From assembly GCF_022846255.1 (NCBI RefSeq), contig NZ_AP025682.1: DNA of 64,000 nucleotides; one strand, written 5' to 3'. Shown here piece after piece: positions 973 through 62,286 of this stretch. The position numbers and the translations under genes were made by a program. This DNA is from Escherichia coli. Lineage in GTDB: Bacteria > Pseudomonadota > Gammaproteobacteria > Enterobacterales > Enterobacteriaceae. Every line of letters begins with the position of its first letter. Position 1 is the first letter of the stretch. Under the pieces are notes generated by a model. That model saw only the letters and a program-made list of their open reading frames with translations, was not told the DNA's origin and made no database searches.

Positions 973-1049
973 GGCTACGTAGCTCAGTTGGTTAGAGCAC
1001 ATCACTCATAATGATGGGGTCACAGGTTCGAATCCCGTCGTAGCCACCA
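973..1049 (+). tRNA. metT: tRNA-Met (elongator, anticodon CAU)
   Basis: 77-nt sequence GGCTACGTAGCTCAGTTGGTTAGAGCACATCACTCATAATGATGGGGTCACAGGTTCGAATCCCGTCGTAGCCACCA read directly; cloverleaf and CCA end. Confidence 0.95.
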
Positions 1050-1059
1050 TCTTTTTTTT

Positions 1060-1144
1060 GCGGGAGTGGCGAAATTGGTAGACGCACCAGATTTAGGTTC
1101 TGGCGCCGCAAGGTGTGCGAGTTCAAGTCTCGCCTCCCGCACCA
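1060..1144 (+). tRNA. leuW: tRNA-Leu (anticodon UAG), long variable arm
   Basis: 85-nt sequence GCGGGAGTGGCGAAATTGGTAGACGCACCAGATTTAGGTTCTGG...CGCCTCCCGCACCA read directly. Confidence 0.95.
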
Positions 1145-1167
1145 TTCACCAGAAAGCGTTGTACGGA

Positions 1168-1242
1168 TGGGGTATCGCCAAGCGGTAAGGCACCGGTTTT
1201 TGATACCGGCATTCCCTGGTTCGAATCCAGGTACCCCAGCCA
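1168..1242 (+). tRNA. glnU: tRNA-Gln (anticodon UUG)
   Basis: 75-nt TGGGGTATCGCCAAGCGGTAAGGCACCGGTTTTTGATACCGGCATTCCCTGGTTCGAATCCAGGTACCCCAGCCA. Confidence 0.95.
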
Positions 1243-1276
1243 TATTCTTCGAGTAAGCGGTTCACCGCCCGGTTAT

Positions 1277-1351
1277 TGGGGTATCGCCAAGCGGTAAGGC
1301 ACCGGTTTTTGATACCGGCATTCCCTGGTTCGAATCCAGGTACCCCAGCCA
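1277..1351 (+). tRNA. glnW: tRNA-Gln (anticodon UUG), tandem duplicate
   Basis: Identical 75-nt copy of the glnU sequence. Confidence 0.95.
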
Positions 1352-1366
1352 TCGAAGAAACAATCT

Positions 1367-1443
1367 GGCTACGTAGCTCAGTTGGTTAGAGCACATCACT
1401 CATAATGATGGGGTCACAGGTTCGAATCCCGTCGTAGCCACCA
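1367..1443 (+). tRNA. metU: tRNA-Met (elongator, anticodon CAU), second copy
   Basis: Identical 77-nt copy of the metT sequence. Confidence 0.95.
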
Positions 1444-1491
1444 AATTCTGAATGTGTCGAATACGTTCGGCAAATTCAAAAACCAATTTGT

Positions 1492-1566
1492 TGGGGTATC
1501 GCCAAGCGGTAAGGCACCGGATTCTGATTCCGGCATTCCGAGGTTCGAATCCTCGTACCCCAGCCA
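1492..1566 (+). tRNA. glnV: tRNA-Gln (anticodon CUG)
   Basis: 75-nt TGGGGTATCGCCAAGCGGTAAGGCACCGGATTCTGATTCCGGCATTCCGAGGTTCGAATCCTCGTACCCCAGCCA. Confidence 0.95.
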
Positions 1567-1603
1567 ATTTATTCAAGACGCTTACCTTGTAAGTGCACCC
1601 AGT

Positions 1604-1678
1604 TGGGGTATCGCCAAGCGGTAAGGCACCGGATTCTGATTCCGGCATTCCGAGGTTCGAATCCTCGTACCCCAGCCA
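1604..1678 (+). tRNA. glnX: tRNA-Gln (anticodon CUG), tandem duplicate
   Basis: Identical 75-nt copy of the glnV sequence. Confidence 0.95.
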
Positions 1679-11295: not shown

Positions 11296-12204
11296 ATGCA
11301 ATTACGTAAACCTGCCACAGCAATCCTGGCCCTGGCGCTTTCCGCAGGACTGGCACAGGCAGATGACGCCGCCCCGGCAGCAGGCAGCACGCTGGACAAA
11401 ATCGCCAAAAACGGCGTGATTGTCGTCGGTCACCGTGAATCTTCAGTACCTTTCTCTTATTACGACAATCAGCAAAAAGTGGTGGGCTACTCGCAGGATT
11501 ACTCCAACGCCATTGTTGAAGCAGTGAAAAAGAAACTCAACAAACCAGACTTACAGGTGAAATTGATTCCGATCACCTCACAAAACCGTATTCCACTGCT
11601 GCAAAACGGCACTTTCGATTTTGAATGCGGTTCTACCACCAACAATGCCGAACGCCAAAAACAGGCGGCTTTCTCTGACACTATTTTCGTGGTCGGTACG
11701 CGCCTGTTGACCAAAAAGGGTGGCGATATCAAAGATTTCGCCGATCTGAAAGGCAAAGCCGTAGTCGTCACTTCCGGCACTACCTCTGAAGTTTTGCTCA
11801 ACAAACTGAATGAAGAGCAAAAAATGAATATGCGAATTATCAGCGCCAAAGATCACGGTGACTCTTTCCGTACCCTGGAAAGCGGTCGTGCCGTTGCCTT
11901 TATGATGGATGATGCTCTGCTGGCTGGTGAACGTGCGAAAGCGAAGAAACCAGACAACTGGGAAATCGTCGGCAAGCCGCAGTCTCAGGAAGCCTACGGT
12001 TGCATGTTGCGTAAAGACGATCCGCAGTTCAAAAAGCTGATGGATGACACTATCGCTCAGGTGCAGACCTCCGGTGAAGCGGAAAAATGGTTTGATAAGT
12101 GGTTCAAAAATCCAATTCCGCCGAAAAACCTGAACATGAATTTCGAACTGTCGTACGAAATGAAAGCACTGTTCAAAGAACCGAATGACAAGGCACTGAA
12201 CTAA
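11296..12204 (+). CDS. gltI: glutamate/aspartate ABC transporter periplasmic binding protein
   Basis: ORF 11221..12204; start set at the Met of the signal peptide MQLRKPATAILALALSAGLAQA (ATG 11296, aaggag SD 7 nt upstream). Confidence 0.95.
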   Translation: MQLRKPATAILALALSAGLAQADDAAPAAGSTLDKIAKNGVIVVGHRESSVPFSYYDNQQKVVGYSQDYSNAIVEAVKKKLNKPDLQVKLIPITSQNRIPLLQNGTFDFECGSTTNNAERQKQAAFSDTIFVVGTRLLTKKGGDIKDFADLKGKAVVVTSGTTSEVLLNKLNEEQKMNMRIISAKDHGDSFRTLESGRAVAFMMDDALLAGERAKAKKPDNWEIVGKPQSQEAYGCMLRKDDPQFKKLMDDTIAQVQTSGEAEKWFDKWFKNPIPPKNLNMNFELSYEMKALFKEPNDKALN

Positions 12205-12205
12205 T

Positions 12206-12360
12206 TACAAGAACCAGGGGCGGAAATTCCAGCCCTCTCGATTGTTACGTAGCACGGACAGACTATACGCCTGGTGGTCGTTCCCCATCGGGCCTGAAAA
12301 CCGCAATACGCTGGGTAACAATCTTCGAGGGTAGCAGTTAACGCTGCTACCCTCTTTTTT
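12206..12360 (+). ncRNA. sroC: SroC sRNA (GcvB sponge) from the gltI-gltJ spacer
   Basis: Position between gltI stop and gltJ start; ends in hairpin gagggtagcag-ttaacg-ctgctaccctc plus tttttt (12327-12360); identity assigned from locus knowledge, not alignment. Confidence 0.5.
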
Positions 12361-12373
12361 CTGGAGTAGATTT

Positions 12374-54245: not shown

Positions 54246-54474
54246 TCCTCTGATTTACAAAACACGCTAATTCGTCTCCCATAAACCATGACGATTAAGA
54301 TTTATACATAATGCGCTACATTGAGGAATTCCCTGAATGTGACGCAAATCACTTCAAAGAGTGAGCAACAGTCAGTATCATCATGTGAGTTAAACCCTCG
54401 CCGCCTGACGGTGAGGGTTTTCTTTTGGGTATGTTTATCTGCGACACTCGCAGTACCGACGACATGGAGTAAAA

Positions 54475-58089: not shown

Positions 58090-58460
58090 CTATACTTCCT
58101 CCGTGTTTTCGATGAGATGTAAGGTAACCAATTTTTGCCGATTCGGCTAATGCGTTTCCATTATCAAATCGATAAGTTTTACCTTACAACCTTCGTAAGA
58201 CAACTTTGTGAACTTTGCACCGCCAGCGGCGATAAAAAGTAAAATGGCCCCCTTTCCAGGTGACCGTGTAATCTGAACTACCCTTTGGTATCTTCAGCGC
58301 CTGCCTGCAGGCTGAGGTGTTGCCCTTACAAATGCAACAACGACATGGATTACAACACCCTCATAAACAAAGGGCAATCACCTGATCTAAGCTCTTACCT
58401 ATGACAGTGATAGGTTATGCCTTTTACTCGACTTTTGCACTGACTGAAAAGGACAAATTA

Positions 58461-59207
58461 ATGTTAAAAAAGATACTTTTACTGGCCCTGCTTCCTGCAA
58501 TCGCCTTCGCAGAGGAACTTCCTGCCCCAGTAAAAGCGATTGAAAAACAGGGTATTACAATCATCAAAACGTTCGATGCCCCTGGAGGAATGAAAGGTTA
58601 TCTCGGTAAGTATCAGGATATGGGCGTCACCATCTACCTGACTCCAGATGGTAAGCACGCTATCTCTGGTTACATGTACAACGAAAAAGGTGAAAACCTG
58701 AGTAACACGCTTATCGAAAAAGAAATTTACGCACCCGCCGGACGTGAAATGTGGCAACGGATGGAACAATCCCACTGGCTCCTCGACGGTAAAAAAGACG
58801 CGCCGGTCATTGTCTACATCTTCGCCGATCCGTTCTGCCCATATTGTAAACAGTTCTGGCAGCAGGCTCGTCCGTGGGTAGATTCTGGCAAAGTGCAATT
58901 GAGAACATTGTTGGTTGGGGTTATCAAGCCAGAAAGCCCGGCGACAGCAGCGGCAATTCTTGCCTCCAAAGATCCCGCAAAAACCTGGCAACAATATGAA
59001 GCCTCTGGTGGCAAGCTTAAGCTAAGCGTGCCTGCAAACGTAAGTACAGAGCAAATGAAAGTGTTAAGCGACAACGAGAAACTCATGGACGATCTGGGGG
59101 CAAATGTCACACCAGCTATCTATTACATGAGTAAGGGAAATACCCTGCAACAGGCCGTCGGATTACCCGATCAGAAAACACTTAATATCATTATGGGGAA
59201 TAAATAG
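58461..59207 (+). CDS. dsbG: periplasmic thiol:disulfide oxidoreductase DsbG
   Basis: ORF 58401..59207; start set at [17 protein letters not shown] signal peptide; CPYC active site. Confidence 0.9.
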
Positions 59208-59414
59208 AATATAATTCATGGGTGGTTGAAATACATCCTTGCTTTTCAACCATCCTAAAAACTCATGAATTGCTCGTAACCCACCTGACAGCTATGCTAT
59301 TTTAGATAAACTTAATCCAAAGTTAAGCAGAAAAACATAATACATATAAATACAACAGCAACACTATTGATCAAGTGAATGATTTCTGGAAGAGACAATA
59401 CAGCGGAGTATGTT

Positions 59415-60317
59415 ATGGCTAATCTTTATGATCTAAAAAAATTTGACCTCAATTTACTGGTCATATTTGAATGTATTTATCAACATCTCAGCATTAGTAA
59501 AGCGGCAGAATCATTATATATAACGCCCTCTGCTGTTAGTCAGTCGTTACAACGTTTACGTGCGCAATTTAATGACCCGTTATTCATTCGCTCTGGGAAA
59601 GGTATCGCGCCGACTACAACAGGGTTAAACCTGCATCACCATCTTGAGAAAAATCTCAGAGGCCTTGAACAAACGATCAATATCGTAAATAAGTCTGAAC
59701 TAAAGAAAAATTTTATTATCTACGGTCCTCAGCTTATTTCTTGTACTAATAACAACATGCTAATCCGCTGTCTTAGACAAGATACTTCAATCGATATAGA
59801 ATGCCATGACATCCTGCTTTCAGCTGAAAATGCCGAAGAACTGTTGGTTCAACGCAAAACTGACCTGGCAATTACGCTGCAACCAGTAATTAGTCGCTCT
59901 GTCATCTGCATGCCGTTACACACTATTCGCAATTCCCTTATATGTAGCAACAAACATCCTCGTATTACTGATACCAGTAACTATGAACAAATTATCGCCG
60001 AAGAATTCACCCTGTTGATATCTAAATCAGCAGGGATTGACGAAATTCAAATGGACATAGATGAACGTTTTATAAACCGTAAAGTTTCATTTCGCAGTTC
60101 TTCTTTGTTGACTATAATTAATAGCATTTCTGTTACTGACTTATTAGGCATTGTGCCCACCGAACTGTACGATTTACATCGTGATTTTTTGAAGTTAAAA
60201 GAAATAAAACTAGAACAACCTCTTCCTGCGGTTAAACTTTATATTTCCTATAACAAGGCTTCGTTGAACAACCTTGTCTTCTCCCGATTCATAGATCGTT
60301 TAAATGATAGCTTCTGA
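59415..60317 (+). CDS. ybdO: LysR-family transcriptional regulator
   Basis: ORF 59379..60317; start set at MANLYDLKKFDLNLLVIFECIYQHLSISKAAESLYITPSAVSQSLQRLR (LysR HTH); AT-rich gene. Confidence 0.85.
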   Translation: MANLYDLKKFDLNLLVIFECIYQHLSISKAAESLYITPSAVSQSLQRLRAQFNDPLFIRSGKGIAPTTTGLNLHHHLEKNLRGLEQTINIVNKSELKKNFIIYGPQLISCTNNNMLIRCLRQDTSIDIECHDILLSAENAEELLVQRKTDLAITLQPVISRSVICMPLHTIRNSLICSNKHPRITDTSNYEQIIAEEFTLLISKSAGIDEIQMDIDERFINRKVSFRSSSLLTIINSISVTDLLGIVPTELYDLHRDFLKLKEIKLEQPLPAVKLYISYNKASLNNLVFSRFIDRLNDSF

Positions 60318-60463
60318 TTCATTACCACTGACAAATAATATATTACGCATCAATTAATTCATTGTGTGAATATAAAATAATGTGCTCTATCTTGCTTCGT
60401 TTATCCTATAATTAGCGGATTCATCTCACGAGTCACCCCGTAACGTTCAGAGAGCGTTTTTAG

Positions 60464-61684
60464 ATGTCTATTTATAAAATCCCGCTTCCACTGAATATTC
60501 TGGAAGCTGCAAAAGAACGTATTACCTGGACACTTAATACCCTACCCCGTATCTGTGTTTCTTTTTCGGGTGGTAAAGATTCCGGATTAATGCTGCATCT
60601 GACAGCCGAAATTGCCCGACAAATGGGCAAAAAAATCTGCGTTTTGTTTATCGACTGGGAAGCGCAGTTCTCATGCACTATTAACTATGTTCAGTCATTA
60701 CGTGAGTTTTACGCCGATGTCATCGAAGAGTTTTACTGGGTTGCGCTCCCGCTTACGACGCAAAATTCCCTTTCTCAATACCAACCCGAATGGCAGTGCT
60801 GGGAACCTGATGTCGAATGGGTACGTCAGCCCCCGCAAGATGCGATAACCGATCCTGACTTTTTCTCCTTTTACCAGCCTGGCATGACCTTCGAACAATT
60901 TGTGCGTGAGTTTGCTGAATGGTTTTCACAAAAACGTCCGGCGGCGATGATGATCGGCATCCGTGCAGATGAGTCCTACAACCGTTTTGTCGCCATCGCC
61001 AGTTTAAATAAACAACGTTTTGCCGATGATAAGCCCTGGACCACCGCCGCACCAGGCGGTCATAGTTGGTACATTTACCCCATCTACGACTGGAAAGTGG
61101 CTGATATCTGGACCTGGTATGCTAACCATCAACAGCTCTGTAACCCACTGTATAATATAATGTATCAGGCAGGCGTTCCTCTGCGTCATATGCGAATTTG
61201 CGAACCTTTTGGCCCGGAGCAACGGCAAGGATTATGGCTCTATCACGTTATCGAACCGGATCGCTGGGCTGCTATGTGCGCACGAGTCAGCGGGGTAAAA
61301 AGTGGCGGCATTTACGCCGGACATGATAATCATTTTTATGGTCATCGGAAAATCCTCAAGCCAGAACATTTAGACTGGCAAGAATATGCATTATTGCTGC
61401 TCAATAGCATGCCGGAAAAAACAGCTGAGCATTACCGCAATAAAATCGCCATTTATTTGCACTGGTATCAGAAAAAAGGCATCGAAGTTCCACAAACCCA
61501 GCAAGGGGACATTGGCGCGAAAGATATCCCCTCCTGGCGGCGAATATGCAAAGTTTTACTCAATAACGATTACTGGTGCCGGGCATTATCATTTAGTCCT
61601 ACGAAAGCGAAGAACTATCAGCGTTATAACGAACGGATAAAAGGAAAACGTCAGGAATGGGGGATACTATGCAACAACGATTAA
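60464..61684 (+). CDS. ybdN: PP-loop ATP pyrophosphatase / PAPS-reductase-like protein (DUF3440)
   Basis: 406 aa; PP-loop SGGKDS in CVSFSGGKDSGLMLHL. Confidence 0.85.
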   Translation: MSIYKIPLPLNILEAAKERITWTLNTLPRICVSFSGGKDSGLMLHLTAEIARQMGKKICVLFIDWEAQFSCTINYVQSLREFYADVIEEFYWVALPLTTQNSLSQYQPEWQCWEPDVEWVRQPPQDAITDPDFFSFYQPGMTFEQFVREFAEWFSQKRPAAMMIGIRADESYNRFVAIASLNKQRFADDKPWTTAAPGGHSWYIYPIYDWKVADIWTWYANHQQLCNPLYNIMYQAGVPLRHMRICEPFGPEQRQGLWLYHVIEPDRWAAMCARVSGVKSGGIYAGHDNHFYGHRKILKPEHLDWQEYALLLLNSMPEKTAEHYRNKIAIYLHWYQKKGIEVPQTQQGDIGAKDIPSWRRICKVLLNNDYWCRALSFSPTKAKNYQRYNERIKGKRQEWGILCNND

Positions 61685-62286
61685 CGCAGGATTTAACCCA
61701 ATTTCTCGCCAGCTTGCCGGAAGATGATCGCATCAAAGCGATTAATGAAATCCGCATGGCGATCCATCAGGTTAGCCCCTTTCGTGAAGAGCCAGTGGAT
61801 TGCGTTCTGTGGGTTAAAAACAGCCAACTTATGCCTAATGATTACAACCCAAACAACGTGGCACCACCCGAAAAAAAACTGCTGAAAAAATCCATTGAAA
61901 TAGATGGTTTTACCCAACCCATTGTGGTCACGCATACGGATAAAAATGCCCTGGAAATCGTGGATGGTTTTCACCGCCATGAAATTGGTAAAGGCTCATC
62001 ATCGTTAAAATTACGCTTAAAAGGTTATTTGCCGGTGACCTGTCTGGAAGGTACGCGTAATCAACGCATCGCCGCGACTATTCGTCATAATCGCGCTCGT
62101 GGACGTCACCAAATCACTGCCATGTCAGAAATCGTCCGTGAACTCAGCCAGTTGGGATGGGACGATAATAAAATTGGCAAAGAGCTGGGAATGGACAGCG
62201 ACGAAGTGTTGCGCCTGAAGCAAATTAACGGCCTGCAAGAGTTGTTTGCCGACCGTCAATTTTCCCGCGCCTGGACGGTTAAATAA
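61657..62286 (+). CDS. ybdM: ParB/sulfiredoxin-fold protein
   Basis: 209 aa; DGxHR-type motif (VDGFHRHEIG); 5' end overlaps ybdN 3' end by 28 nt (16 nt if the second ATG at 61669 is used). Confidence 0.8.
   Translation: MGDTMQQRLTQDLTQFLASLPEDDRIKAINEIRMAIHQVSPFREEPVDCVLWVKNSQLMPNDYNPNNVAPPEKKLLKKSIEIDGFTQPIVVTHTDKNALEIVDGFHRHEIGKGSSSLKLRLKGYLPVTCLEGTRNQRIAATIRHNRARGRHQITAMSEIVRELSQLGWDDNKIGKELGMDSDEVLRLKQINGLQELFADRQFSRAWTVK

What the first reader, a model, noticed from the sequence alone, without database searches (positions are those of the whole stretch)
59415..62286. AT-rich ybdO-ybdN-ybdM block: LysR regulator with a PP-loop ATPase and ParB-like protein pair
ybdN carries a PP-loop (SGGKDS) characteristic of PAPS-reductase and ATP-pyrophosphatase enzymes, and ybdM carries a ParB/sulfiredoxin-type DGxHR motif (DGFHRH). 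The two genes overlap by 16-28 nt, implying coupled translation. A PP-loop enzyme paired with a ParB-like protein is the core logic of DNA phosphorothioation-type modification modules (DndC-like plus DndB-like), though no cysteine desulfurase or SMC-like partner is present. The block is markedly AT-rich, especially ybdO, consistent with a horizontally acquired and probably H-NS-silenced islet. The function of the pair is, to my knowledge, undetermined.
Basis: partly seen in the sequence, partly recalled or inferred. Interest (0 to 1): 0.5.

Follow-up and report, generated by a model that had tools for sequence, protein, structure and literature searches.

The report
Silenced phage-type IbrA–IbrB gene pair
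This is the annotated E. coli block citR(ybdO)-ybdN-ybdM: a repressor plus a tightly linked enzyme and DNA-binding protein pair (the IbrA/IbrB family) that is carried mainly by phages in many bacterial phyla, is not a DNA-phosphorothioation (Dnd) system or a sulfur-assimilation enzyme, and still has no known biochemical function.

Summary
The three ORFs, the SGGKDS PP-loop, the DGFHRH motif, the 28/16-nt overlap and the AT-richness are all present at the stated coordinates.

The block is the known citR(ybdO)-ybdN-ybdM locus, found in 5420 of 5426 complete E. coli genomes. CitR is published as the repressor of ybdNM.

YbdN and YbdM belong to the IbrA/IbrB family. In 164 loci picked only by YbdN similarity, 156 have a YbdM-like gene next door, and three of the eight exceptions stop at or within about 240 nt of a contig end. 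About a quarter of the non-enterobacterial genome loci and of the viral loci add an SNF2-like helicase. In phages the module often sits at the early/late junction, just before the packaging genes.

YbdN has the PAPS-reductase/FMN-adenylyltransferase/CysD fold. It has no conserved cysteine and scores far below the DndC and CysH cut-offs. YbdM resembles ParB/Noc/KorB (N-domain plus HTH), not DndB.

So [quoted passage not shown] is a reasonable working analogy, but Dnd membership fails and sulfur chemistry is doubtful.

My best guess, an inference, is a phage-derived module that marks or remodels DNA in an ATP-dependent way. Its only reported read-out is activation of silenced foreign genes.

The locus is known; its function is open and testable. 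Interest is moderate.

The parts
59415..60317 (+). citR (ybdO): a LysR-type repressor of ybdNM. It is very AT-rich (G+C 0.33-0.40). A longer in-frame ATG lies at 59379.
   Evidence: The NCBIfam CitR equivalog NF047710 scores 454 bits against a cut-off of 400. RefSeq names the gene citR. Deleting citR raises ybdN by 5.5 log2 and ybdM by 2.5 log2, and a ChIP-exo peak lies upstream (PMC9068703).
60318..60463 (+). citR-ybdN spacer. It holds a TATAAT at 60407-60412 that is kept in all three E. coli allele classes, and a palindrome ATCAATTAATTCAT at 60349-60362. This is the putative ybdN promoter/operator region.
   Evidence: Taken from the spacer alignment and the inverted-repeat search. The generic promoter scan found no more sites than in shuffled sequence, so this part is only a lead.
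60464..61684 (+). ybdN (IbrA family, 406 aa). Residues ~12-235 form a PAPS-reductase-fold PP-loop ATP-pyrophosphatase domain. Residues ~237-404 form the helical DUF3440 domain.
60566..60583 (+). PP-loop SGGKDS (S35-S40), the site that binds ATP and the pyrophosphate leaving group.
   Evidence: Read directly from the sequence. G37, K38 and S40 are invariant, and S35, G36 and D39 are at least 90% conserved, in 41 diverse homologues.
61657..62286 (+). ybdM (IbrB family, 209 aa, or 205 aa from the ATG at 61669). It has an N-terminal helical hairpin (residues 2-39), a ParB/Srx-type nucleotide-binding N-domain (~46-150) and a ParB-type HTH (~153-196). It overlaps the end of ybdN by 28 or 16 nt.
   Evidence: Pfam ParB_N at 2.8e-4. 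PHROG 2159 at 1e-68. AF2 model with pLDDT 87. Foldseek matches ParB, Noc and KorB at E ~1e-7 over 150-180 columns, with Srx and SbnI weaker. Alignment A2.
61963..61980 (+). DGFHRH (D103-H108). It aligns with ParB Box II (A-G-E-R-R-W in Noc). D103, G104 and R107 are invariant and H106 is at least 90% conserved.
   Evidence: Sequence. Conservation. Profile alignment to Noc 7ol9 and ParB 4umk.
62083..62109 (+). Family-specific invariant motif RHNRARGxH (R143-H151).
   Evidence: The eight named residues R143, H144, N145, R146, A147, R148, G149 and H151 are invariant in 41 sequences from many phyla; position 150 (x) varies. Its function is unknown. The AF2 model is low-confidence at 149-151.

Best explanation
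The block is the chromosomal, normally silent copy of the IbrA-IbrB module, a two-gene unit that lives mainly on phages and prophages.

Shown:
- YbdM is a small ParB/Noc/KorB-like protein. It has a nucleotide-binding ParB/Srx N-domain (DGFHR plus an invariant RHNRARGxH) followed by a ParB-type helix-turn-helix.
- YbdN is a PAPS-reductase-fold PP-loop ATP pyrophosphatase with an added helical DUF3440 domain. It has no conserved cysteine, and its nearest solved relatives are FMN adenylyltransferase, CysD and APS/PAPS reductase.
- The two genes are almost never found apart, in either order. In about a quarter of loci they are joined by an SNF2-like DNA translocase.
- CitR represses the pair in E. 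coli (published).

Inferred:
- YbdM binds DNA and brings YbdN to it. The genes are translationally coupled, so the proteins probably form a complex.
- YbdN uses ATP, releasing PPi, to adenylylate an oxygen on the DNA (backbone phosphate or a base carbonyl). That position is then substituted by a non-sulfur or externally supplied nucleophile, leaving a covalent mark.
- In phages the mark would be laid down around the switch from replication to packaging.
- In enterobacteria the visible consequence is altered expression of silenced foreign genes, as reported for IbrAB and the prophage eib genes.
- The cell keeps the module off through CitR and, according to the literature, H-NS.
For: Fold and motifs of YbdN:
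- PAPS_reduct plus DUF3440.
- The invariant SGGKDS, D64/E66, GxRxxES..R and P..DW...D motifs are those of the PAPS-reductase/CysD/FMNAT clade.
- The profile search of PDB sequences ranks CysD first at 8.5e-11.

Fold and motifs of YbdM:
- ParB, Noc and KorB (N-domain plus HTH) at E ~1e-7.
- Box II-equivalent G-x-x-R is retained.
- The ParB-like HTH motif 'LGMDxDExLRLKQ' is conserved.

Linkage:
- 83 of 84 genome and phage loci have the partner adjacent.
- 73 of 80 viral contigs do too, with 43 in N->M order and 29 in M->N order.
- Intergenic gaps are -48 to +21 nt.

DNA context:
- An SNF2/Helicase_C protein sits directly upstream in 18 genome loci and 22 viral loci.
- Arthrobacter phage Salgado: ParB - PAPS reductase - ParB - methyltransferase - TerS - TerL.
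- Mycobacterium phage Morty007: PAPS reductase - ParB - terminase.
- Faecalibacterium phage Taranis: ParB - IbrA - IbrB - two small ORFs - TerS - TerL.
- Clostridium prophage: SNF2 - N - M - 163 aa - TerL.
- The YbdM N-domain also matches ParB-methyltransferase fusions (phrog_498 and PADLOC MTase_II).

Precedents for ParB-like proteins paired with DNA-modifying enzymes: DndB/DndC and DpdB/DpdA (text).

Expression read-out:
- Records annotate the family as 'co-activator of prophage gene expression IbrA/IbrB'.
- The presence of ibrB enhances Eib expression (Sandt 2002, as cited in PMC7649339).
- Accessory E. coli ibrAB copies sit next to a PerC-family regulator and adhesin operons.

Repression by CitR: PMC9068703.
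Against: - No modified nucleotide, DNA binding, ATPase activity or complex has ever been shown for any family member.
- No nucleophile donor and no cognate restriction or reader gene travels with the pair.
- The SNF2 partner is absent from three quarters of loci, including E. coli.
- The position near the terminase is recurrent but not universal. My seed-based search found TerL in only 9 of 80 viral windows. In Streptococcus and Lactobacillus phages the pair follows the lysis genes instead.
- The only experimental phenotype (eib activation) is equally well explained by a purely regulatory role.
- The DUF3440 domain found no informative structural match.
Confidence: 0.35

Rival explanations
1. 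A purely regulatory pair with no DNA chemistry. YbdM/IbrB would act as a nucleotide-switched, ParB-type DNA clamp that counteracts silencing or activates late or prophage promoters, in the manner of VirB or KorB. YbdN/IbrA would adenylylate or otherwise charge YbdM, or make its ligand.
For: - YbdM's closest folds include the CTP-dependent transcription regulator KorB as well as ParB and Noc.
- The family is annotated as a co-activator of prophage gene expression.
- The presence of ibrB enhances Eib expression (PMC7649339 citing Sandt 2002).
- Accessory E. coli copies are followed by a PerC-family regulator and lie beside fimbrial and YadA-like adhesin genes. ibrB and perC are co-induced on adherence.
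- In phages the pair often lies just upstream of the late (packaging) operon.
Against: - A 400-aa enzyme with an invariant active site is an unusual requirement for a transcription factor.
- Phage Taranis also carries a separate RinA-like late activator.
- The SNF2-like translocase partner and neighbouring methyltransferases fit DNA processing better.
- YbdM lacks the C-terminal dimerisation domain of ParB clamps, and Box I 'QPR' is replaced by 'NPN'.
- The family occurs in many phyla, and I did not check whether they have H-NS-type silencers.
Confidence: 0.22
2. One reading: a Dnd/Ssp-like module that puts sulfur into the DNA backbone (phosphorothioation). YbdN would act as DndC/SspD and YbdM as DndB, drawing sulfur from the housekeeping IscS.
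For: - The same broad families are paired (PP-loop PAPS-reductase fold plus ParB superfamily), as in DndC/DndB.
- There are weak partial hits to DndC models (E 8.5e-5 and 2.3e-5) and to BrxP.
- In some Dnd systems IscS substitutes for DndA (PMC11662687), so a missing desulfurase is not fatal.
Against: - DndC TIGR03183 scores 21.6 bits against a cut-off of 290.4, over only 79 residues.
- No cysteine is conserved. The best Cys column is 83% and is Ala in E. coli. The other Cys positions vary in 28 patterns among 41 sequences. DndC C280 is indispensable for its [4Fe-4S] cluster.
- There is no DndB, DndD or DndE homologue, no SMC-like ATPase and no restriction partner in the window or in any of the 164 related loci examined.
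- YbdN is nearer to the non-redox adenylyltransferases.
Confidence: 0.05
3. An anti-phage or superinfection-exclusion module (abortive infection or nucleotide depletion) carried by prophages. The E. coli chromosomal copy would be a domesticated defence gene pair.
For: - The pair sits in moron-like positions after the lysis genes in Streptococcus and Lactobacillus phages, and in IS-flanked islands and plasmids in E. coli.
- YbdM overexpression costs 10% growth (PMC8764527).
- PP-loop and ParB domains recur in defence systems.
Against: - No PADLOC v2 model matches beyond weak domain-level hits.
- The pair is also common in virulent phages such as Flavobacterium FCL-2 and mycobacteriophages.
- The E. 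coli copy is at a fixed core position in 5420 of 5426 genomes, not a variable hotspot.
- There is no effector-like toxin domain.
Confidence: 0.08
4. A genuine sulfur-assimilation enzyme (PAPS/APS reductase, the 'viral cysH' auxiliary metabolic gene), as the RefSeq and PHROG product names say.
For: - Product names in RefSeq and PHROGs.
- PAPS-reductase fold.
- The cys regulon is up 2-3 log2 in the citR deletion strain (PMC9068703).
- A DUF3440 clade is counted among viral CysH (bioRxiv 10.1101/2021.01.05.425418).
Against: - CysH models score 24-35 bits against cut-offs of 154-254.
- No conserved cysteine exists to play the role of the C-terminal catalytic Cys of PAPS/APS reductases.
- The obligate ParB/HTH partner and the SNF2 helicase have no place in sulfate reduction.
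Confidence: 0.02

Closest known systems
IbrA/IbrB ('immunoglobulin-binding regulator', co-activators of prophage eib genes; E. coli ECOR-9 island and phage homologues)
   Same: - Same two families, and the same gene order in the enterobacterial copies and in most other loci.
- RefSeq calls YbdM an 'IbrB-like domain-containing protein'.
- Streptococcus phage IbrA is 36% identical to YbdN over 94% of its length.
- PHROG 2302 and PHROG 2159 match at 3e-76 and 1e-68.
- Accessory E. coli ibrAB copies are about 67% identical at DNA level to the Cedecea pair used as the query.
   Different: - The ybdNM copy sits at a fixed core position under a dedicated LysR repressor (CitR). It is not on an island with a PerC-family regulator.
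- No target genes are known for YbdNM.
- The biochemical activity of IbrAB itself is also unknown.
DndB-DndC of the DNA phosphorothioation system (also SspD, BREX type-4 BrxP)
   Same: A PAPS-reductase-fold PP-loop ATP pyrophosphatase is encoded next to a ParB-superfamily protein. Other members of the family add a DNA-dependent ATPase or translocase.
   Different: - No Fe-S cysteines.
- Scores are far below the model cut-offs.
- The ParB partner is of the ParB_N plus HTH type, not DUF262/DndB.
- No DndA, DndD or DndE and no restriction module.
- The extra DUF3440 domain is present.
FMN adenylyltransferase / FAD synthase PAPS domain, and CysD (ATP sulfurylase small subunit)
   Different: - YbdN has an extra 170-residue helical domain, several invariant Trp residues and an obligate DNA-binding partner.
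- NCBIfam CysD models score only 18-25 bits against cut-offs of 195-413.
ParB / Noc / KorB CTP-dependent DNA clamps (and VirB-type anti-silencers)
   Same: N-terminal ParB/Srx domain followed by an HTH DNA-binding domain. Foldseek gives E ~1e-7 over 150-180 columns. The Gly and last Arg of Box II are retained.
   Different: - No C-terminal dimerisation domain.
- Box I 'QPR' becomes 'NPN'.
- Box II is DGFHR (Srx/'DGxHR'-like) rather than GERRxR.
- It has its own invariant RHNRARGxH motif.
- Enterobacterial members add an N-terminal helical hairpin.
DpdA-DpdB (7-deazaguanine DNA modification) and phage ParB-methyltransferase fusions
   Same: A ParB-like ATPase or DNA-targeting domain is coupled to an enzyme that modifies DNA (text). 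The YbdM N-domain hits ParB-MTase families.
   Different: The enzyme partner is a PP-loop adenylyltransferase-type protein, not a transglycosylase or methyltransferase. No 7-deazaguanine synthesis genes are linked.

Membership tests
IbrA/IbrB family | IbrA-type protein: PAPS_reduct PP-loop domain followed by DUF3440 | tested here: met
   Pfam PF01507 at 4.8e-14 (residues 30-234) plus PF11922 at 5.1e-23 (237-344) and 2.2e-06 (352-383). PHROG 2302 aligns full length at 3e-76.
IbrA/IbrB family | An adjacent, co-oriented small ParB-like/HTH protein (IbrB) | tested here: met
   ybdM overlaps the end of ybdN. The partner is adjacent in 83/84 and 73/80 related loci. RefSeq names it 'IbrB-like domain-containing protein'.
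IbrA/IbrB family | Activates expression of prophage or island genes (eib) | not testable with these tools
   Known only from Sandt et al. 2002, as cited in PMC7649339. The original paper is not in the library. No target is known for YbdNM.
Dnd DNA phosphorothioation (DndABCDE) | DndC: score above the curated DndC model cut-off | tested here: not met
   TIGR03183 scores 21.6 bits against 290.4, over residues 145-223 only. PADLOC DndC scores 21.6 bits.
Dnd DNA phosphorothioation (DndABCDE) | DndC: conserved cysteines that ligate a [4Fe-4S] cluster | tested here: not met
   No invariant or co-varying Cys in 41 diverse homologues. The requirement for DndC C280 is stated in PMC11662687.
Dnd DNA phosphorothioation (DndABCDE) | DndB (DUF262-type), DndD (SMC-like ATPase), DndE and DndA/IscS encoded together | tested here: not met
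   The neighbours are dsbG and ybdL. YbdM matches no DndB model. None of these families recur in the 164 related loci.
Assimilatory PAPS/APS reductase (CysH) | PAPS-reductase fold with PP-loop | tested here: met
Assimilatory PAPS/APS reductase (CysH) | C-terminal catalytic cysteine (ECGLH-type) and a score above the model cut-offs | tested here: not met
   No conserved Cys. TIGR02057 scores 35.1 against 254.2; PRK02090 scores 33.9 against 154.
ParB/Noc/KorB CTPase clamps | ParB N-domain followed by an HTH DNA-binding domain | tested here: met
   Foldseek matches 6sdk, 7nfu, 7bnr and 8qa8 at E 1e-7 to 1e-5. Profile hits to Noc and ParB.
ParB/Noc/KorB CTPase clamps | Canonical CTP-binding boxes (Box I QPR, Box II GERRxR) and a C-terminal dimerisation domain | tested here: not met
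   Box I is NPN and Box II is DGFHR. The protein ends about 13 residues after the last HTH helix. Nucleotide binding itself cannot be tested here.
Known anti-phage defence systems (PADLOC-DB v2) | A match to a defence-system protein model | tested here: not met
   Only weak domain-level hits: DndC 2.3e-5, BrxP 1.7e-4 and MTase_II 6.5e-4.
LysR-type regulator CitR | Score above the NCBIfam equivalog cut-off | tested here: met
   NF047710 scores 454 bits against 400. The protein is 89% identical to K-12 CitR, with the first 110 residues identical.

The most novel reading that the evidence does not exclude
IbrA-IbrB (YbdN-YbdM) is an undescribed kind of nucleic-acid modification machine. A ParB-type DNA-loading protein, sometimes with an SNF2 translocase, guides a Cys-less PP-loop adenylyltransferase that puts a new, non-sulfur covalent mark on DNA. 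Phages of several bacterial phyla would use it. Enterobacteria would have domesticated it as a CitR/H-NS-gated switch for silenced foreign genes. As a corollary, a sizeable share of viral 'cysH' auxiliary metabolic genes would have nothing to do with sulfur.
Probability: 0.2. Interest if true: 0.8.

Novelty: already known. Interest (0 to 1): 0.4.

Why it matters
- The pair is one of the remaining conserved genes of unknown function in E. coli K-12, and the same module is widespread. The YbdN family has 1691 clusters at 50% identity. It appears in 224 sequenced phages and in hundreds of viral contigs.
- If it marks or remodels DNA, it would add a new enzyme logic (ParB-guided adenylylation) to phage-host conflict and to control of horizontally acquired virulence genes. 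The accessory ibrAB-perC copies beside adhesin operons point that way.
- It also matters for annotation. RefSeq, PHROGs and viral-ecology surveys label these proteins 'PAPS reductase/cysH'. The missing catalytic cysteine and the obligate ParB partner argue against that label.
- E. coli offers a ready test bed, because deleting citR derepresses ybdNM about 45-fold.

Tried and rejected
- PADLOC defence models gave nothing specific.
- The generic sigma-70 promoter and terminator scan of the block found no more sites than in shuffles.
- PDB sequence searches with the single proteins found only marginal hits.
- Full-text searches for ybdN/ybdM, IbrA/IbrB, DUF3440 and 'PAPS reductase + ParB' found no functional study beyond the CitR paper. 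Many 'IbrA/iBRB' hits were unrelated, for example blood-retinal barrier papers and author names.
- The original IbrAB paper could not be read.
- I looked for Rosetta-stone fusions of the two families among 269 fetched homologues. There was one odd 281-aa protein (P0243: ParB N-part plus DUF3440 part), too likely a gene-calling artefact to use.
- I tested whether four partly conserved Cys (112, 246, 362, 372) form a metal site. They do not co-occur, so I rejected the idea.
- I tried to quantify closeness to the terminase in viral contigs with seed-built TerL and portal profiles. Sensitivity was too low (TerL in 9 of 80, portal in 0), so only the annotated phage examples are used.
- PHROG scans of downstream neighbours showed that some genome loci are prophages and many carry no phage signal. 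'Always phage-borne' is therefore not claimed.
- The DUF3440 domain found no structural match of its own, because whole-chain searches were dominated by the N-domain.

Full report
**1. What is there**

The end of the window reads ahpF(-), ahpC(-), dsbG(+), then three co-oriented ORFs, then ybdL(-).

- citR/ybdO runs 59415-60317.
- ybdN runs 60464-61684.
- ybdM runs 61657-62286.

The same order, reverse-complemented, is annotated in E. coli K-12 MG1655 as b0603-b0601. Protein identities to K-12 are 98% for YbdN, 99% for YbdM and 89% for CitR.

SGGKDS is at YbdN residues 35-40, and DGFHRH is at YbdM residues 103-108. The ybdN stop lies 28 nt inside ybdM counted from the ATG at 61657, or 16 nt from the ATG at 61669. 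The second Met aligns with the start of other enterobacterial homologues.

G+C is 0.33-0.40 over citR and its spacers, 0.44-0.49 over ybdNM, and 0.50-0.56 outside.

**2. What was already known**

- NCBIfam identifies the first gene as CitR, at 454 bits against a cut-off of 400.
- A 2022 study showed a CitR ChIP-exo peak at the locus. It also found ybdN up 5.5 log2 and ybdM up 2.5 log2 in a citR deletion, and it states that citR is H-NS regulated (PMC9068703).
- RefSeq names YbdN 'phosphoadenosine phosphosulfate reductase' and YbdM 'IbrB-like domain-containing protein'.
- A proteomics study calls YbdM 'completely uncharacterized' (PMC8764527).
- IbrA/IbrB are the 'immunoglobulin-binding regulators'. 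The presence of ibrB enhances expression of prophage Eib proteins (Sandt 2002, as cited in PMC7649339). The original paper was not available.
- I found no paper that gives a biochemical activity for any family member.

**3. The pair is a unit, and mostly a phage unit**

The YbdN family is moderately large: 1691 clusters at 50% identity with E<=1e-3, and 221 with E<=1e-30.

I built an alignment of 41 diverse members (A1). With it I fetched 80 loci from species-representative genomes and 80 from viral contigs. The loci were selected on YbdN similarity alone.

- A YbdM-like ORF is adjacent in 83 of 84 genome and phage loci. The one exception ends 2 nt after the YbdN homologue.
- A YbdM-like ORF is adjacent in 73 of 80 viral loci. 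Two of the seven exceptions stop at or within about 240 nt of a contig end.
- In genomes the partner is almost always immediately downstream, with a gap of -48 to +21 nt.
- In viral contigs both orders occur: 43 N->M and 29 M->N. Linkage that survives a change of order argues for function, not just inherited synteny.

The hosts span Proteobacteria, Verrucomicrobia, Firmicutes, Bacteroidetes and others. tblastn finds the family in 224 phage records, including phages of Flavobacterium, Mycobacterium, Streptococcus, Arthrobacter, Bacillus and Lactobacillus.

**4. Recurrent partners and positions**

An SNF2-related/Helicase_C protein of about 415 aa sits directly upstream in several places:

- 18 non-enterobacterial genome loci;
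- phages AQ113 and FCL-2;
- 22 of 80 viral loci.

Bacteroidetes instead carry an unassigned protein of about 140 aa. Another ORF of about 140 aa separates M and N in 11 viral contigs.

In annotated phages the module often closes the early region just before packaging:

- Arthrobacter phage Salgado: ParB - PAPS reductase - ParB - methyltransferase - TerS - TerL.
- Mycobacterium phage Morty007: PAPS reductase - ParB - terminase.
- Faecalibacterium phage Taranis: ParB - IbrA - IbrB - two small ORFs - TerS - TerL.
- Flavobacterium phage FCL-2: SNF2 - ParB - IbrA - a 97-aa ORF - portal.
- A Clostridium prophage: SNF2 - N - M - 163 aa - TerL.

In Streptococcus and Lactobacillus phages the pair instead follows the lysis genes. 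Many genome loci show no phage neighbours at all. The position is therefore recurrent, not universal.

**5. What the proteins are**

*YbdN*

- Pfam finds PAPS_reduct plus DUF3440.
- The AF2 model is confident (pLDDT 88).
- The family profile's best PDB match is CysD, at 8.5e-11.
- The invariant residues are the nucleotide and leaving-group motifs of this clade, plus several Trp.
- No cysteine is conserved. The best Cys column is 83% and is Ala in E. coli. Four other Cys positions occur in 28 different combinations among 41 sequences.

That rules out a CysH-type redox mechanism and a DndC-type Fe-S site. It leaves ATP-dependent adenylyl transfer to an oxygen as the conserved chemistry; this last step is an inference from the family.

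*YbdM*

- It is strikingly conserved: 41-63% identity to the E. coli protein across phyla in all but one of the 40 aligned homologues (Flavobacterium phage FCL-2, 38%).
- Its model (pLDDT 87) matches ParB, Noc and KorB over both the N-domain and the HTH. Sulfiredoxin and SbnI match the N-domain only.
- DGFHR aligns with ParB Box II, A-G-E-R-R in Noc.
- An RHNRARGxH motif is invariant and specific to the family.
- There is no C-terminal dimerisation domain. Enterobacterial and a few other members instead have an N-terminal helical hairpin.

**6.

The general idea holds up. A PP-loop enzyme is coupled to a ParB-like protein and probably acts on nucleic acid, and the SNF2 partner strengthens this.

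Membership of the Dnd system fails on every defining feature that I could test:

- model scores (21.6 bits against 290.4);
- Fe-S cysteines (against the requirement);
- the type of DndB;
- the absence of DndA, DndD and DndE.

YbdN is no nearer to DndC than to CysD, FMN adenylyltransferase or CysH.

'Horizontally acquired islet' needs qualifying. The order dsbG-citR-ybdN-ybdM-ybdL is conserved in Escherichia, Citrobacter and Pseudocitrobacter. Superficieibacter keeps citR-ybdN-ybdM-ybdL, but my ORF clustering did not detect dsbG there. The block is also in 5420 of 5426 complete E. coli genomes. Any acquisition is therefore old.

**7. Most likely mechanism**

I commit, at about 0.35, to a DNA-directed module:

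- YbdM loads on DNA.
- YbdN, made in a fixed ratio by translational coupling, uses ATP (releasing PPi) to activate an oxygen on DNA for substitution, leaving a covalent mark.
- SNF2-type translocases assist in some lineages.
- Phages deploy the module around the transition from replication to packaging.
- In enterobacteria the observable effect is activation of otherwise silent foreign genes.
- The chromosomal copy is kept off by CitR and H-NS.

Shown: the folds, motifs, linkage, partners, genomic positions and CitR repression. Inferred: the complex, DNA as the substrate, the chemistry, and the link to gene activation.

The main rival (about 0.22) is a purely regulatory ParB-type switch in which YbdN acts on YbdM or its ligand. 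Three observations favour it:

- the KorB-like fold;
- the eib phenotype;
- a new observation that accessory E. coli ibrAB copies are followed by a PerC-family regulator and lie beside F17 or F4 fimbrial operons and a YadA-like adhesin, flanked by IS elements.

Phosphorothioation (0.05), defence (0.08) and true sulfur assimilation (0.02) are less likely. The remainder is 'something else', for example a protein, tRNA or small-molecule substrate. PP-loop enzymes such as Cap9 do modify proteins.

**8. Verdict**

The locus is known and annotated, and its regulator is published, so the finding is not new as an object. Its function is still open.

The comparative evidence here adds several points: near-obligate pairing in about 160 independent loci; phage residence; an SNF2 partner; no conserved cysteine; adenylyltransferase-like nearest relatives; and a ParB-plus-HTH architecture. 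Together these sharpen the question and make it directly testable in K-12 by deleting citR.

Interest is moderate (0.4). The most novel reading not excluded is a new ParB-guided DNA-marking chemistry, at about 0.2 probability.

Noticed in passing
window 59100-60500 (citR and both flanking spacers): citR is hyper-divergent within E. coli. Window versus K-12 gives pS 0.70 (dS about 2.0, saturated) and dN 0.066. For comparison, dS is 0.26 for ybdN, 0.07 for ybdM, 0.17 for dsbG, 0.21 for ybdL and 0.02 for ahpC. The first 110 residues (HTH) are identical, yet the DNA there is only 78-89% identical. A third allele exists (L006), and over the block E. coli genomes split 1785 (95-99% identity) versus 3348 (80-90%). 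Citrobacter species share only 64-71% aa identity in CitR. The cause is unresolved: ancient alleles, import by recombination, or an elevated mutation rate in H-NS-bound DNA.
   Followed up: partly
L089:8233-11122 (E. coli CFS3292 chromosome); L090:6987-9144 (plasmid pOkiPb01675_1): Many E. coli carry extra, diverged ibrA-ibrB copies: 8003 places in 5420 genomes, up to 5 per genome, 85 on plasmids. In the two loci inspected, the pair is followed by a PerC-family regulator. It is IS-flanked and lies beside F17 or F4(K88) fimbrial operons and a YadA-like adhesin plus an OmpA-family gene.
   Followed up: partly
L023:6739-7983, L054:6736-7992, L002:4824-6002, L005:4145-5356 and others: A compact SNF2-related/Helicase_C protein (~415 aa, phrog_62) is a recurrent third gene directly upstream of the IbrA-like gene, in 18 genome loci and 22 of 80 viral loci. 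Bacteroidetes have an unassigned ~140-aa protein there instead (12 loci). A different ~140-aa ORF lies between the ParB-like and IbrA-like genes in 11 viral contigs.
   Followed up: partly
window 60464-61684; phage records: The product name 'phosphoadenosine phosphosulfate reductase' (RefSeq, PHROGs) and the counting of a DUF3440 clade as viral 'cysH' auxiliary metabolic genes (bioRxiv 10.1101/2021.01.05.425418) look like misnomers for this family. There is no catalytic cysteine, and a ParB partner is obligate.
   Followed up: partly
window 59379/59415, 58401/58461, 61657/61669: Three genes have alternative in-frame starts. The citR ORF opens 36 nt upstream of the annotated start, and the dsbG ORF opens 60 nt upstream. 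ybdM has a second ATG 12 nt downstream that aligns with the start Met of other enterobacterial homologues and has the better-spaced purine-rich stretch upstream.
   Followed up: partly
literature on K-12 ybdM and citR (PMC8764527, PMC9068703): YbdM protein rose 29-fold in MG1655 carrying plasmid pUUH239.2 (linked to blaCTX-M-15), and its overexpression cost 10% growth. In the citR deletion strain the whole cys regulon was up 2-3 log2 together with ybdNM. Neither observation is explained.
   Followed up: no
window 58234-58327 (-): An Rfam STnc70 sRNA match lies just above the gathering score (44.1 against 40 bits) in the ahpC-dsbG spacer.
   Followed up: no
window 59220-59255: A 12-bp inverted repeat (GGGTGGTTGAAA / TTTCAACCATCC) lies right after the dsbG stop. 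It is probably the dsbG terminator and separates dsbG from citR.
   Followed up: no
window 973-1675, 12200-12362, 40895-41343, 54321-54429: Ordinary Rfam features elsewhere in the window: a cluster of seven tRNA genes, sroC, a cspA-type thermoregulator and the rnk leader.
   Followed up: no
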